The notes below the pieces were generated by a model. That model was given only the letters and a program-made list of their open reading frames with translations, was not told where the DNA came from and made no database searches. From a virus: DNA of 19,196 nucleotides. The stretch is taken from UHGV virus genome UHGV-1692018. One strand, written 5' to 3'. Both the position numbers and the translations under genes were made by a program. The stretch's first letter is position 1, and each line of letters starts with the position of its first letter. This document shows, piece after piece, positions 1 through 19,196 of the stretch.

Positions 1-88
1 GGACTTCGGGGGAAAAACGAGTATTTTTAGTCATCCTGTTTACCTCTTTCTCAGGAAGTTTAGTCTCCAGGATTCCCGGGGCGGTTCA
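1..88 (-). mobile_element. Terminal 88 bp of an IS3-family insertion sequence (IS629/IS1203-like), left inverted repeat plus start of orfA; the rest of the element lies outside the window
   Basis: Bases 1-88 are the exact reverse complement of 19109-19196. Read on the minus strand the segment starts TGAACCGCCCCGGGAATCCTGGAGACTAAAC and contains ATGACTAAAAATACTCGTTTTTCCCCCGAAGTCC, translating to MTKNTRFSPEV, which I recognise as the orfA N-terminus of IS629-type elements. Identity ends abruptly at 88/89. Confidence 0.85.
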
Positions 89-248
89 CATCGCCCTTTG
101 CCTCAAGTTTCATCAATAACTCCATTCGATAAGCTATCTCTGCCTGAATTGACCTATGGCATCTTTTTGCTGATTCGCGGATATGTGAATCAACCTTTTC
201 TGTAAAACGAACCTGACGCGGCTTGATGGAAGATATCTTTTCAGTCAT
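60..248 (-). CDS. Arc/Mnt-family ribbon-helix-helix repressor, C-terminus altered by IS insertion (last ~9 residues IS-encoded)
   Basis: 62-aa ORF with AGGAG 7 nt upstream of the ATG. The stretch RQVRFTEKVDSHIRESAKRCHRSIQAEIAYRMELLMK aligns by eye with P22 Arc FNLRWPREVLDLVRKVAEENGRSVNSEIYQRVMESFKK. Codon 54 spans the phage/IS junction at 88/89, so residues 54-62 (VNRPGNPGD) and the stop are IS-encoded. Confidence 0.7.
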   Translation of the reverse strand: MTEKISSIKPRQVRFTEKVDSHIRESAKRCHRSIQAEIAYRMELLMKLEAKGDVNRPGNPGD

Positions 249-15334: not shown

Positions 15335-15592
15335 CTACTTCGCTTTTGCTTCCGCTCGCTTACGCCGGCGCTCTTCTTTCCTCTCGGCTTTTGCCATGTC
15401 CATGAATGCCTGCATGATCGAGTTCCGCATCATGTAGCTAACAAAGTGATGATTGACACAGCCGTTGAGGCGCAGCTGCTCGCCAAACTCATCCACCGAG
15501 GCCAATGCTTCCATCATGCCCTTCTCGCCTTTCATGAACTCTGAGAAGTCGCGCCCCGCTCTGGAGGCGCATTCAATAACACGATCACTCAT
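15335..15592 (-). CDS. Hypothetical 85-aa protein with basic C-terminal tail, coupled to the KilA-N/Bro-N gene
   Basis: ATGA start/stop overlap with the upstream gene; C-terminus ERKEERRRKRAEAKAK is highly basic; no recognisable domain. Confidence 0.5.
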   Translation of the reverse strand: MSDRVIECASRAGRDFSEFMKGEKGMMEALASVDEFGEQLRLNGCVNHHFVSYMMRNSIMQAFMDMAKAERKEERRRKRAEAKAK

Positions 15593-16086
15593 CCCGGAAG
15601 CCCGGGGATCGTAATCTGCAGCTGGTTAGCCAGGGAGTTAATCTCAGCGACCAACACTGGCTTCGTATAGCGCCATGCTGCCAGCCCTTGTCCGCAGAAG
15701 CTCGCCATGTCTTTCTTCTGGTCAAACTCATGACATTTCATGTTGAGCTGCGCACTTAAGCTGTTGCGATGCTGAAGTTCTCCGGTGAAGTAGTCATCCA
15801 GGACTTTATAGGCTGCATATTTAAATCCGGGGTTTAGCCATGCTGCATAATCATAAGCAACAAACTTCCCGCCATATGTTCCACCGTGTACACCGCGCTC
15901 AGTAAAAACCACAGATTCGTGGTTTTTCTCCAGCTCGGCTAAGAACTCTTTGGTCTGCTTGTTTCGCAGGTAGTGGTACGGAGATTCAGATTCACTTTTA
16001 CCACTGGCTTTCCACATATCAGTGAGGCAGATCATTCCTGATTCATCAACACGGATCGGTGTATTAAAAAGCGTGATTGCTTTCAT
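15589..16086 (-). CDS. KilA-N/Bro-N-type (antirepressor-like) DNA-binding domain protein; moron-like insertion between lysis and terminase genes
   Basis: The listed 222-aa ORF starts at 16257 inside an upstream terminator; the likely start is the ATG at 16086 (MKAITLFNTPIRVDESGMICLTDMWKASG...), about 165 aa. The N-terminal pattern F..iR....G.....tD..ka.G fits the KilA-N/Bro-N consensus as recalled. Confidence 0.6.
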   Translation of the reverse strand: MKAITLFNTPIRVDESGMICLTDMWKASGKSESESPYHYLRNKQTKEFLAELEKNHESVVFTERGVHGGTYGGKFVAYDYAAWLNPGFKYAAYKVLDDYFTGELQHRNSLSAQLNMKCHEFDQKKDMASFCGQGLAAWRYTKPVLVAEINSLANQLQITIPGLPG

Positions 16087-16230
16087 AGCGTCTTTACCTT
16101 TTAGAAAGTGAGCCTGTCTCACAGAAAAGCCGCCCGAGAGAGGTCGCCACCTATAACGGCATTTCTCAGGCTCGCTTACTGAAAGGCTCTCGTTAATATG
16201 CGCGTGAGATGCGCTGTGAAATTCAGATAT

Positions 16231-16253
16231 AAAAAAGCCCCGCATCGCGAGGC
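16231..16253 (-). terminator. Intrinsic terminator downstream of Rz
   Basis: Minus-strand GCCUCGC-GAU-GCGGGGC (7-bp stem with one G.U pair) followed by UUUUUU, about 30 nt after the Rz stop. Confidence 0.6.
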
Positions 16254-16285
16254 TCATTAAATGGACTTTGTGATTTGCAAAAAAA

Positions 16286-17398: not shown

Positions 17399-17525
17399 GC
17401 TCTACCCCTTCATTGAGGGGATTTGCTCTATTTAATTAGGAATAAGGTCGATTACTGATAGAACAAATCCAGGCTACTGTGTTTAGTAATCAGATTTGTT
17501 CGTGACCGATATGCACGGGCAAAAC

Positions 17526-17555
17526 GGCAGGAGGTTGTTAGCGCAACCTCTTGCC
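17526..17555. promoter_or_regulatory. Strong 12-bp-stem hairpin in the leader upstream of the lysis genes; possible attenuator/terminator
   Basis: GGCAGGAGGTTG, 6-nt loop, CAACCTCTTGCC (one G.U pair in RNA). On the minus strand it is followed by GUUUUG. About 130 nt upstream of the holin start. Confidence 0.3.
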
Positions 17556-17804
17556 ACCCGCTTTCACGAAGGTCATGTGTAGAAGGCCGCAGCGTAACTA
17601 TCACTGATGAATTCAGGATAGCCAGTGGCTACGGCTCAGTTTGGGTTGTGCTGTTGCTGGGCGGCGATGACGCCTGTACGCATTTGGTGATCCGGTTCTG
17701 CTTCCGGTATTCGCTTAATTCAGCACAACGGAAAGAGCACTGGCTAACCAGGCGCGCCGACTCTTCACGATTATCGACTCAATGCTCTTACCTGTTGTGC
17801 AAAT

Positions 17805-17847
17805 AAAAAAAGCCACCGTTGCAACTTAAGAGTCACTAACGGCAGCT
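17805..17847 (-). terminator. Terminator-like hairpin plus U7 tract just downstream of the HNH endonuclease gene
   Basis: Minus-strand AGCUGCCGUU ... AACGGUGGCU (about 10 bp with two G.U pairs, large loop) followed by UUUUUUU; starts about 10 nt after the HNH stop. Confidence 0.45.
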
Positions 17848-17854
17848 TACATCT

Positions 17855-18367
17855 TTAAACGGTATGATATTTCATTCTGGCTGCCTCAAAAGCCGCAGCG
17901 GCAAGTTCGGCAGTGTCATGGTATCCAAGGTTAATACACTTTCCAGACGCATTAATTCTTGCTCTCCATTTCCCGTACTTAGCATCCCAAGACACGCCAC
18001 GGTATCCAGATTTATTATTCTTCTGAATTTTCCTGTTTTGCATATTTTCGGAATGAGTGACAAGACGAAGATTTGATATCCGGTTATCTGTTCTTACCCT
18101 GTTGATGTGATCAATAAAACCATCGGGCATGGTGCCATAAACAATCAACCATGCCAGTCTGTGAGCAGGGCATGCTTTACCATTAATCATAATCATTAAA
18201 TACCCATCAGAATTTATTGATGAGCATTTCTTGAAAGCAAAACGAGAGTTCCATGTCAAAGTGGTCCTCTCTCTCCCCTGCCTCCATCTCCAGTGAAAGT
18301 CGCCTGATGATGGATTGTAATCAACAACAGAAAGCACCATTTCTGGCGTTAATTTTATTTCTTTCAT
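17855..18367 (-). CDS. Free-standing HNH homing endonuclease with C-terminal AP2-type DNA-binding domain
   Basis: 170 aa. HNH motif region AHRLAWLIVYGTMPDGFIDHINRVRTDNRISNLRLVTHSEN; C-terminal AP2-like region GYRGVSWDAKYGKWRARI...GYHDTAELAAAAFEAARMKY. Confidence 0.85.
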   Translation of the reverse strand: MKEIKLTPEMVLSVVDYNPSSGDFHWRWRQGRERTTLTWNSRFAFKKCSSINSDGYLMIMINGKACPAHRLAWLIVYGTMPDGFIDHINRVRTDNRISNLRLVTHSENMQNRKIQKNNKSGYRGVSWDAKYGKWRARINASGKCINLGYHDTAELAAAAFEAARMKYHTV

Positions 18368-18489
18368 CGCTTTACCTTAGGGATAGAGCCTGTTCGCGTA
18401 GATATGACAGCCAAGAGCGGAGCGATGTTTCCACCACCATATCTCAGGCCCATATCACTAAGACTCTTGTTTTGATTGCACGCGAATGC

Positions 18490-18512
18490 AAAAAAGCCCA
18501 CAGGAGGTGGGC
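18490..18512 (-). terminator. Intrinsic terminator about 50 bp downstream of the Q-like gene (tR'-like)
   Basis: Minus-strand GCCCAC-CUCCU-GUGGGC (perfect 6-bp GC stem, 5-nt loop) followed by UUUUUU. Confidence 0.7.
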
Positions 18513-18554
18513 TTGTGATGGTTGCTGAATGCAAAAGCAGCAGCATATGTGAAT

Positions 18555-18584
18555 ATTATGGCTAAATGGCTAATTGCATGTCAA
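18555..18584 (-). promoter_or_regulatory. Candidate late promoter (pR'-like) overlapping the 3' end of the Q-like gene
   Basis: Minus strand has TTGACA (18579-18584), an 18-nt spacer containing the Q stop codon, then CATAAT (18555-18560). Predicted start is about 18548, giving a roughly 55-nt RNA ending at the 18490-18512 terminator. A -10-like element (TATGCT) lies in the initial transcribed region. Confidence 0.45.
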
Positions 18585-19080
18585 GACTTTTAACAGCAAC
18601 ATGCTTAACTTTCTCAACACGTTTACGCATTTTGAAAGCATTTTGCATTGGTTGGTACAAAACAAATAACGACGCTTTCAGGATGTCGTCAATTTCGTTT
18701 CTACAGGTTGCCATTGAAGGTTTTCTCCATCCCTCGCCACCACGTCCACACATCTTGCGTGGCTTTGCAGTCGCGTGATAGTAGGATGCAATTGCTCGCT
18801 TAGATGAACCATGAGCGTAGTAGCTGAGGAGGATGCCAAAGGCTTTTTTGTCAATGTACATGACGGAATCGACGACCTGAGAAATCAACATTCCATCATC
18901 ATCATTGCACATTGGCCTTGTCATAACTCTTCCCGGCTCTACGCTCTCCATGAACTTCGCTATTACGCTGCTCATGCGCTTTTCCAGACGACCTGAATAA
19001 ACCCATGCGCCCCACAGTTCAAGCCAGCCATTCAGCCACTCATGCTGTTCTTTGGTGAGGTTTAGTTCTCTTATGCCCAC
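18562..19080 (-). CDS. Q-like late-gene antitermination protein (QuuD/phage-82-type family, tentative)
   Basis: 172 aa, GTG start with GGAG upstream. Motifs WLELWGAW and RPMCNDDDGMLI resemble E. coli prophage Q-type antiterminators (QuuD: ERWGAW ... RPQICDDDAMII, recalled from memory). Located immediately upstream of the late promoter/terminator and the lysis cassette. Confidence 0.6.
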   Translation of the reverse strand: MGIRELNLTKEQHEWLNGWLELWGAWVYSGRLEKRMSSVIAKFMESVEPGRVMTRPMCNDDDGMLISQVVDSVMYIDKKAFGILLSYYAHGSSKRAIASYYHATAKPRKMCGRGGEGWRKPSMATCRNEIDDILKASLFVLYQPMQNAFKMRKRVEKVKHVAVKSLDMQLAI

Positions 19081-19108
19081 GCGCCTTCTCCCTGTACCTG
19101 AATCAATG

Positions 19109-19196
19109 TGAACCGCCCCGGGAATCCTGGAGACTAAACTTCCTGAGAAAGAGGTAAACAGGATGACTAAAAATACTCGTTTTTCCCCCGAAGTCC
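19109..19196 (+). mobile_element. Terminal 88 bp of an IS3-family insertion sequence (IS629/IS1203-like), left inverted repeat plus start of orfA; the rest of the element lies outside the window
   Basis: Starts TGAACCGCCCCGGGAATCCTGGAGACTAAACTTCCTGAGAAAGAGGTAAACAGG, then ATGACTAAAAATACTCGTTTTTCCCCCGAAGTCC (MTKNTRFSPEV); exact inverted copy of bases 1-88. Confidence 0.85.

What the first reader, a model, noticed from the sequence alone, without database searches (positions are those of the whole stretch)
18562..19120. IS boundary lies only 28 bp upstream of the Q-like start, probably separating Q from its early promoter
In lambdoid phages Q is expressed from the early rightward transcript through the nin region. 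Here the IS end (19109) is 28 bp from the GTG start at 19080 and the IS orfA is transcribed away from Q. Unless the IS supplies an outward promoter, Q and therefore the whole late operon may be silent, which would make this a defective prophage remnant despite an apparently intact virion module. The GTG start and the roughly 19 extra N-terminal residues relative to QuuD-type proteins also leave open that the native 5' end of Q was removed.
Basis: inference. Interest (0 to 1): 0.45.

Follow-up and report, generated by a model that had tools for sequence, protein, structure and literature searches.

The report
IS629 inserted just upstream of Q
A common jumping gene (IS629) has landed in the tail end of a dispensable phage phosphatase gene, 28 bases before a complete late-gene activator (Q) of an Sf6/P22-like prophage; this is an ordinary event, and similar insertions in related viable phages do not stop late genes from working.

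Summary
The coordinates are right. An IS629 left end starts at 19109, orfA starts at 19163 and reads away from Q, and the Q ORF (18562..19080, minus strand) starts with GTG at 19080, 28 nt from the IS.

The protein matches phage 21 Q (PDB 6JNX/6P18) from residue 1 and differs from Shigella phage Sf6 gene 59 at 1 of 172 residues. Sf6 and 8 of 10 IS-free loci have the same GTG and the same 28 nt upstream.

Those 28 nt are not a spacer. They are the last codons of a ninI-type Ser/Thr phosphatase gene, whose stop overlaps the Q start. IS629 cut that gene after codon 212.

The reciprocal junction, with a 3-bp duplication (CAT), exists in a metagenome contig carrying N, cI, cro, cII, replication and nin genes. 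This indicates a simple insertion into the pR operon.

No outward promoter was found, so Q must depend on N-antiterminated read-through. That read-through is tolerated in viable Sf6 (IS911, same orientation).

The window is a short-read contig ending in the same 88 nt of IS629 at both ends. Silencing by IS-mediated rearrangement therefore cannot be excluded. The finding is ordinary and of low interest.

The parts
18562..19080 (-). Q late-gene antiterminator gene, phage 21 / Sf6 gene 59 type, 172 aa, GTG start, complete
   Evidence: PDB 6JNX/6P18 match at E=3e-92, aligned from residue 1. PF06530 scores 90 bits against a cutoff of 26. 171/172 residues identical to Sf6 gene 59, with the same GTG.
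19088..19092 (-). Shine-Dalgarno GGGAG, 7 nt before the GTG of Q
   Evidence: Read directly from the sequence. Identical in Sf6 and in most of the IS-free loci.
19071..19108 (-). 3' remnant of the ninI-type Ser/Thr phosphatase gene: last 11 codons plus a TAA that overlaps the Q start in GTGGGCATAA
   Evidence: IS-free loci have a 223-aa PF00149 gene ending 10 nt inside Q. The window is identical to them up to the junction.
19106..19108 (.). Target-site duplication copy (ATG on +, CAT on the Q-sense strand)
   Evidence: The reciprocal junction ...CTCACAT|TGAACCGCCCCGGGTTTCC is present in L036.
19109..19196 (+). IS629 left end: IRL and the first 11 codons of orfA from 19163. The window ends here.
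   Evidence: Identical to the first 88 nt of the 1310-bp element in L020, which is annotated as IS629 in phage records at 99.7% identity.
18555..18584 (-). Late promoter pR' (TTGACA-18-CATAAT), overlapping the 3' end of Q
   Evidence: Scan match of 11/12. Corresponds to the promoter annotated in Sf6 as nearly identical to the phage 21 late promoter.
18484..18514 (-). Leader terminator tR', the target of Q antitermination
   Evidence: 8-bp GC-rich hairpin followed by a T run. Identical to the annotated rho-independent terminator of viable phage HK629.
17855..18367 (-). HNH-AP2 endonuclease gene, first gene after tR'
   Evidence: PF13392 and PF00847 hits. Same gene at the same place in HK629.
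1..88 (-). Second IS629 left end, the exact reverse complement of 19109..19196. The contig starts here.
   Evidence: 88/88 identical.
60..248 (-). Chimeric 62-aa ORF: a 57-aa immI-region gene that has lost its last 3 codons and reads into the left IS629
   Evidence: The same chimeric ORF occurs in 45 blocks of short metagenome contigs, all ending in the IS.

Best explanation
IS629 made a simple copy-out/paste-in insertion, with a 3-bp target duplication (CAT), into the last 11 codons of the dispensable ninI-type phosphatase gene of an Sf6/P22-like lambdoid prophage. The insertion lies 28 nt upstream of a complete Q gene. Q keeps its native GTG start, its Shine-Dalgarno sequence, and its downstream pR'-tR' target.

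The insertion does three things. It truncates the phosphatase. It abolishes the overlap-based translational coupling between the phosphatase gene and Q. It adds 1.3 kb of untranslated antisense IS sequence to the pR transcript.

Q has no promoter of its own and the IS end supplies none. Q is therefore expressed only when N-modified RNA polymerase starting at pR reads through the nin region and the IS. Such polymerase ignores intrinsic and Rho-dependent terminators, so Q expression after induction is expected to be reduced or delayed rather than abolished.

The window stops 88 nt into IS629 at both ends because the element is multi-copy and short-read assembly breaks there. Shown here: the anatomy, the identity of all parts, the duplication, and the existence of the early-region side of the junction. 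Inferred: read-through, and collinearity in this particular genome.
For: - **Q is complete.** It matches phage 21 Q from residue 1 and is essentially identical to Sf6 gene 59.
- **Start and upstream sequence are native.** The same GTG and the same 28 nt occur in viable Sf6 and in 8 of 10 IS-free loci.
- **The 28 nt are phosphatase coding sequence.** The phosphatase stop overlaps the Q start in all IS-free loci.
- **The predicted reciprocal junction exists.** It was found with a 3-bp duplication on contig L036, which carries phosphatase codons 1-212, NinH, NinG, a helicase, a replication gene, CII, Cro, a cI-like repressor and N. L036 also has a lambda-like pR and a strong terminator upstream of the nin region.
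- **Joining L036 to the window minus the IS and one duplication copy restores the IS-free sequence exactly**.
- **No outward promoter and no strong antisense terminator in IS629**.
- **pR' and tR' are intact** and match viable HK629.
- **Precedents.** Sf6 carries IS911 antisense between pR and Q, is viable, and shows unchanged onset of late transcription when the IS is deleted (PMC5630979). Stx2a phages with IS629 in roi are induced and packaged (PMC4587872).
- **Established knowledge (my own, not tool-derived).** Lambda N antitermination is processive and suppresses the polarity of IS insertions (Adhya, Gottesman and de Crombrugghe 1974).
Against: - The far side of the IS is not in the window, and L036 comes from another sample.
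- The Q-side junction is absent from 5426 complete E. coli genomes and from the genome, metagenome and viral collections. No single assembly links both sides.
- The 19-kb segment is flanked by two inverted IS629 copies. Recombination between them would invert it without changing either junction.
- An independent IS629 insertion in the same phosphatase gene is followed by another transposase rather than Q. This shows that such sites do become rearrangement boundaries.
- The IS here is 28 nt from Q, against about 1.36 kb in Sf6. Loss of translational coupling at a GTG start could lower Q more than in Sf6.
- The prophage lineage carries at least three IS insertions, which suggests decay.
Confidence: 0.6

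Rival explanations
1. Q and the late operon are silent and the prophage is a defective remnant. This could happen in two ways. The IS may be polar on the pR transcript, or recombination between IS629 copies (inversion of the 19-kb segment, or a deletion) may have detached the late region from the early region in this genome.
For: - There is no outward promoter at the IS end.
- The contig is bounded by inverted IS629 copies at both ends.
- The tailspike, antirepressor and early region are all outside the window.
- No assembly links the two sides.
- L037/L038 show IS629 in the same gene acting as a boundary to unrelated mobile DNA.
- The lineage carries several IS insertions, including an IS2-like end next to the N region in L036.
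Against: - The reciprocal junction with a perfect 3-bp duplication exists next to a full early region that includes N.
- IS3-family insertions between pR and Q in the same orientation are tolerated in viable Sf6, and IS629 in roi is tolerated in inducible Stx2a phages.
- All head, ejection-protein and lysis ORFs in the window are full-length and collinear with relatives.
Confidence: 0.32
2. The IS end, or the IS-target junction, creates an outward promoter. Q would then be expressed independently of pR and N.
For: Some IS3-family elements are known to activate neighbouring genes through outward -35 elements (my own knowledge). Nothing in the tool results supports it here.
Against: - The consensus scan finds no promoter-like site on the Q-sense strand in 19081..19196 or anywhere on the antisense strand of the full IS.
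- In IS3-family elements the outward -35 sits in the right end. The end facing Q here is the left end (my own knowledge).
- Constitutive Q would probably be lethal through lysis gene expression.
Confidence: 0.04
3. The IS removed the true 5' end of Q, so the ORF is an N-terminally truncated or re-started gene.
For: The Q reading frame stays open upstream into the IS, and the start codon is GTG.
Against: - The protein aligns with phage 21 Q from residue 1.
- Sf6 and 8 of 10 IS-free loci have the same GTG preceded by the same 28 nt, and 2 loci have ATG at the same position.
- There is no in-frame ATG, GTG or TTG upstream within the window.
Confidence: 0.01

Closest known systems
Shigella phage Sf6 (AF547987): gene 58 (ninI phosphatase), gene 59 (Q), pR', with IS911 in ninG
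   Same: The Q protein is 171/172 identical, with the same GTG start, the same upstream sequence and the same phosphatase-Q overlap. The pR' hexamers are the same. Sf6 also has an IS3-family element in the nin region between pR and Q, with orfA reading away from Q.
   Different: The Sf6 element is IS911, sits in ninG and lies about 1.36 kb from Q. Here the element is IS629, sits in ninI and lies 28 nt from Q, which breaks the phosphatase-Q coupling. The Sf6 leader and tR' are followed by tRNA genes, whereas the window has the HK629-type leader and an HNH gene.
Phage 21 Q (Q21; PDB 6JNX, 6P18)
   Same: Residues 1-102 are identical except one. The full 162 aa of the solved protein align at E=3e-92.
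   Different: The C-terminal third is more diverged, and the window protein is 10 aa longer (172 against 162).
IS629 (IS3 family, 1310 bp) insertions in lambdoid prophages of E. coli O157 and relatives
   Same: The terminal sequence and the orfA start are identical, and the target duplication is 3 bp. IS629 is the main source of variation among Stx2a phages, including insertions in the nin-region gene roi of inducible phages.
   Different: This particular site (ninI codon 212) was not found in any complete E. coli genome or phage record.
Escherichia phage HK629
   Same: Same Q (168/173 positions including the stop codon, about 97% identical), identical pR'-leader-tR', and the same HNH gene downstream.
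   Different: HK629 Q starts with ATG and is preceded by NinH rather than a phosphatase gene. HK629 has no IS at this locus.

Membership tests
Q21-type late antiterminator (Pfam PF06530; PDB 6JNX/6P18) | Full-length sequence similarity to phage 21 Q, including the N-terminus | tested here: met
   phmmer E=3e-92, query residues 1-162 aligned to chain residues 1-162. PF06530 scores 90.3 bits against a cutoff of 26.
Q21-type late antiterminator (Pfam PF06530; PDB 6JNX/6P18) | Gene lies immediately upstream of a late promoter and a leader terminator | tested here: met
   TTGACA-18-CATAAT at 18584..18555 and a hairpin with a T run at 18514..18484. These match the annotated pR' of Sf6 and the terminator of HK629.
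Q21-type late antiterminator (Pfam PF06530; PDB 6JNX/6P18) | Antitermination activity at pR' | not testable with these tools
   Needs a reporter or an in vitro transcription assay.
IS629 (IS3 family) | Terminal inverted repeat and near-identity to the reference element | tested here: met
   The 88 nt are identical to the start of the 1310-bp element in L020, which is 99.6-99.7% identical to elements annotated IS629.
IS629 (IS3 family) | orfA/orfB transposase with a frameshift, in a complete 1310-bp element | tested here: inconclusive
   The window holds only the first 11 codons of orfA at each end. The complete structure is seen only in L020.
IS629 (IS3 family) | 3-4 bp target-site duplication | tested here: met
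   CAT on the Q side (window) and CAT on the IRR side in L036. The caveat is that the two junctions come from different assemblies.
NinI-type Ser/Thr phosphatase gene (PF00149) | The 38-nt remnant is identical to the 3' end of full-length homologues whose stop overlaps Q | tested here: met
   The 5' part (codons 1-212) in L036 hits PF00149.
Defective prophage remnant | Loss or detachment of the early region, tailspike or integration module | not testable with these tools
   All of these lie beyond the IS629 ends of the contig, and no linking assembly was found.

The most novel reading that the evidence does not exclude
The 19-kb late region (Q to the immI region) is bracketed by two inverted IS629 copies with their left ends facing inward. 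Recombination between the copies could flip the whole late operon relative to pR. This would act as a reversible on/off switch for prophage lytic competence, or the pair could move a virion-and-lysis module as a composite element.
Probability: 0.04. Interest if true: 0.45.

Novelty: already known. Interest (0 to 1): 0.1.

Why it matters
It matters little beyond annotation. The Q gene should be called complete, with its GTG start. The upstream phosphatase gene should be called disrupted by IS629. The contig ends should be read as assembly breaks at a repeat, not as prophage ends. The case is a useful caution: an IS between pR and Q in a lambdoid prophage is not in itself evidence that late genes are silent, because N-dependent antitermination reads through such insertions and viable phages carry them.

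Tried and rejected
- **Q-side junction searches.** The 30-mer gave no hits in genome contigs, metagenome contigs or viral contigs. No complete E. coli genome covers either junction.
- **Other junction searches.** The left junction and the predicted IRR-side junction gave no hits in viral contigs. The IRR-side junction gave no hit in genome contigs.
- **Whole-window search.** The best complete E. coli genome covers 84% at 95.5% identity, so the source lineage is not among them.
- **Predicted chimeric phosphatase / IS read-through protein.** The search did not find this insertion. The top hit was only an internal duplication. It did reveal an independent IS629 insertion at residue 142.
- **Look-ups by exact protein.** Q, the repressor, the 62-aa chimera and the 222-aa KilA-N protein returned either IS-free long contigs or short contigs ending in the IS.
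- **RNA folding of the Q translation-initiation region.** Folded with and without the IS, neither gave structure beyond shuffled controls, so there is no evidence that the Shine-Dalgarno sequence is occluded.
- **Scan for an outward promoter.** None was found.
- **tRNA and Rfam scans of the window.** Nothing was found.
- **Literature search for an open-access source on N suppression of IS polarity.** It gave only general antitermination papers, so that point rests on my own knowledge.

Full report
**Observation**

On the + strand the sequence TGAACCGCCCCGGGAATCCTGGAGACTAAAC begins at 19109, and an ATG at 19163 opens MTKNTRFSPEV. These 88 nt are identical to the start of a complete 1310-bp element found in a fetched locus (L020:13491-14800). 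That element has matching inverted ends, an orfA/orfB frameshift arrangement and a 4-bp duplication there. It is 99.6-99.7% identical to elements annotated 'insertion sequence: IS3 family IS629' in Stx phage records. The Q-like ORF is 18562..19080 on the minus strand with GTG at 19080. Exactly 28 nt separate it from the IS, and orfA reads away from it.

**What Q is**

The 172-aa protein matches phage 21 Q (PDB 6JNX and 6P18) at E=3e-92. The alignment starts at residue 1, and only one of the first 102 residues differs. It passes Pfam PF06530. It differs from gene 59 of the viable Shigella phage Sf6 at 1 of 172 residues.

The residues that are 'extra' relative to QuuD-type proteins are therefore native to this Q family. 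Sf6 and 8 of 10 IS-free loci encoding the identical protein have the same GTG start, preceded by the identical 28 nt. Two loci have ATG at the same position. The 5' end of Q was not removed.

Downstream, a TTGACA-18-CATAAT promoter (18584..18555) overlaps the end of Q, and a GC-rich hairpin with a T run follows (18514..18484). These match the annotated pR' of Sf6 and the leader and terminator of viable phage HK629. The target of Q is therefore intact as well.

**What the 28 nt are**

In every IS-free relative, a 223-aa ninI-type Ser/Thr phosphatase gene (PF00149) precedes Q, and its TAA lies inside the Q start (GTGGGCATAA). The 28 nt are the last codons of that gene and contain the Shine-Dalgarno sequence of Q (GGGAG, 7 nt from the GTG). 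IS629 interrupted the phosphatase gene after codon 212.

Homology to IS-free DNA runs 3 nt into the IS tip by coincidence, because TGA occurs in both. From the window junction I predicted the reciprocal junction and searched for it. One metagenome contig (L036, 10,874 nt) ends in ...CTGCGGAAACCTCACAT|TGAACCGCCCCGGGTTTCC. This gives a 3-bp duplication, CAT. Removing the IS and one duplication copy restores the IS-free sequence exactly.

L036 carries phosphatase codons 1-212, NinH, NinG, a DnaB-type helicase, a replication gene, CII, Cro, a cI-like repressor and an N antiterminator gene. It also has a lambda-like pR and a strong terminator ahead of the nin region. The event was therefore a simple insertion into the pR operon of a prophage with a full early region.

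**Why the window ends where it does**

Bases 1-88 are the exact reverse complement of 19109-19196. The window is a contig that stops in the same 88 nt of IS629 at both ends, which is the signature of a short-read assembly breaking at a multi-copy repeat.

The left copy cuts a 57-aa immI-region gene three codons before its stop. That chimeric ORF is found in 45 blocks of short metagenome contigs, all ending in the IS. In IS-free relatives the antirepressor, arc/mnt and tailspike genes lie beyond this point. The virion module in the window therefore lacks the tailspike gene.

Neither junction occurs in 5426 complete E. coli genomes, and no assembly links the two sides of either IS.

**Likely consequences**

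- **Transcription.** Consensus scans find no promoter on the Q-sense strand in the IS end, or anywhere on the antisense strand of the full element. The only terminator-like site there is a weak 5-bp hairpin at the right tip. Q must therefore be transcribed from pR across the nin region and the IS. Because a strong terminator already precedes the nin region and N is encoded, Q expression in this phage type is N-dependent in any case. N-modified polymerase is processive and ignores intrinsic and Rho-dependent terminators, including the polarity of IS insertions; this last point is established knowledge, cited from memory.
- **Translation.** In the phosphatase frame the IS brings a stop 8 codons before the junction and no start. 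The overlap-based coupling is lost, and Q depends on its own Shine-Dalgarno sequence and GTG. Folding of the initiation region shows nothing beyond shuffled controls.
- **Expected effect.** I expect lower or delayed Q expression, not silence.

**Precedents**

Sf6 carries IS911, also IS3 family, in ninG. It lies between pR and Q, with orfA reading away from Q. Sf6 is viable. Deleting the element does not change the onset of late transcripts, although lysis becomes faster (PMC5630979). Stx2a phages with IS629 in the nin-region gene roi were recovered as phage DNA after induction (PMC4587872).

**What remains open**

The two IS629 copies flanking the 19-kb segment are inverted. Recombination inside them would flip the segment, or delete sequence, without altering either junction, so the window cannot show collinearity. 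An independent IS629 insertion in the same phosphatase gene (after residue 142, same orientation) is followed by another transposase rather than Q. Such sites do therefore become rearrangement boundaries. The lineage also has an IS2-like end near the N region (the IS2 name is from memory). I put about 0.6 on the simple, read-through-competent arrangement and about 0.3 on a silent or detached late region.

**Verdict**

All parts are known elements at 97-100% identity, in a known kind of arrangement. The truncation hypothesis is refuted. The silencing hypothesis is not supported by precedent, but it cannot be excluded without long reads or expression data. The finding is ordinary and of low interest.

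Noticed in passing
window 1-88 and 19109-19196: The two ends of the window are exact reverse complements of each other (88/88). Both are the IS629 left end. The window is therefore a whole short-read contig bounded by inverted IS629 copies.
   Followed up: yes
window 89-91 and 19106-19108: The three bases just outside the IS629 left end are the same at both copies (CAT reading away from the IS). This may be a 1-in-64 coincidence or a hint of target preference. The other IS629 copies seen (L020, L005) do not share it.
   Followed up: partly
window 60-248 (-): The left IS629 truncates a 57-aa immI-region gene by only 3 codons, giving a 62-aa chimeric ORF. That exact ORF occurs in 45 blocks of ENA/Logan contigs, so this left insertion is fairly widespread.
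   Followed up: partly
window, left of 89: In IS-free relatives the antirepressor, arc/mnt and tailspike genes lie beyond the left IS. The tailspike gene is not in the window, so the virion module is not demonstrably complete.
   Followed up: partly
window 19078-19080: The Q start codon is polymorphic among loci encoding the identical protein: GTG in 8 and ATG in 2 of 10. HK629 also has ATG, and Sf6 has GTG.
   Followed up: yes
window 15589-16257 (-): A 222-aa KilA-N / ORF11CD3 protein downstream of the lysis genes is very rare as an exact sequence. Only 4 contigs in the 153-billion-gene index carry it, and relatives have 165-180 aa versions.
   Followed up: partly
window 17855-18367 (-): An HNH-AP2 endonuclease gene sits between tR' and the holin gene, as in HK629. 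Sf6 has two tRNA genes at the equivalent place.
   Followed up: partly
window 17400-17855: About 450 nt between the HNH gene and the holin gene have no long ORF, and no tRNA or Rfam match.
   Followed up: no
L036 5098-7578: The DnaB-type replicative helicase is 826 aa, against 458 aa in relatives, and has a weak LAGLIDADG hit in the middle. This is probably an intein.
   Followed up: no
L036 1-53: The other end of the contig carrying the reciprocal junction stops in a terminus that I recognise from memory as IS2, next to the sieB/N region. This would be a third IS in this prophage lineage.
   Followed up: no
L037 8139-10969; L038 2127-4957: An independent IS629 insertion in the same phosphatase gene (after residue 142, same antisense orientation) is followed directly by a 380-aa rve / Mu-transposase-C protein gene instead of Q.
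   Followed up: partly
AF017626.1 (hit H83): A 2.6-kb 'phage 21 int' record from E. coli EC38 contains a full IS629 at 99.7% identity.
   Followed up: no
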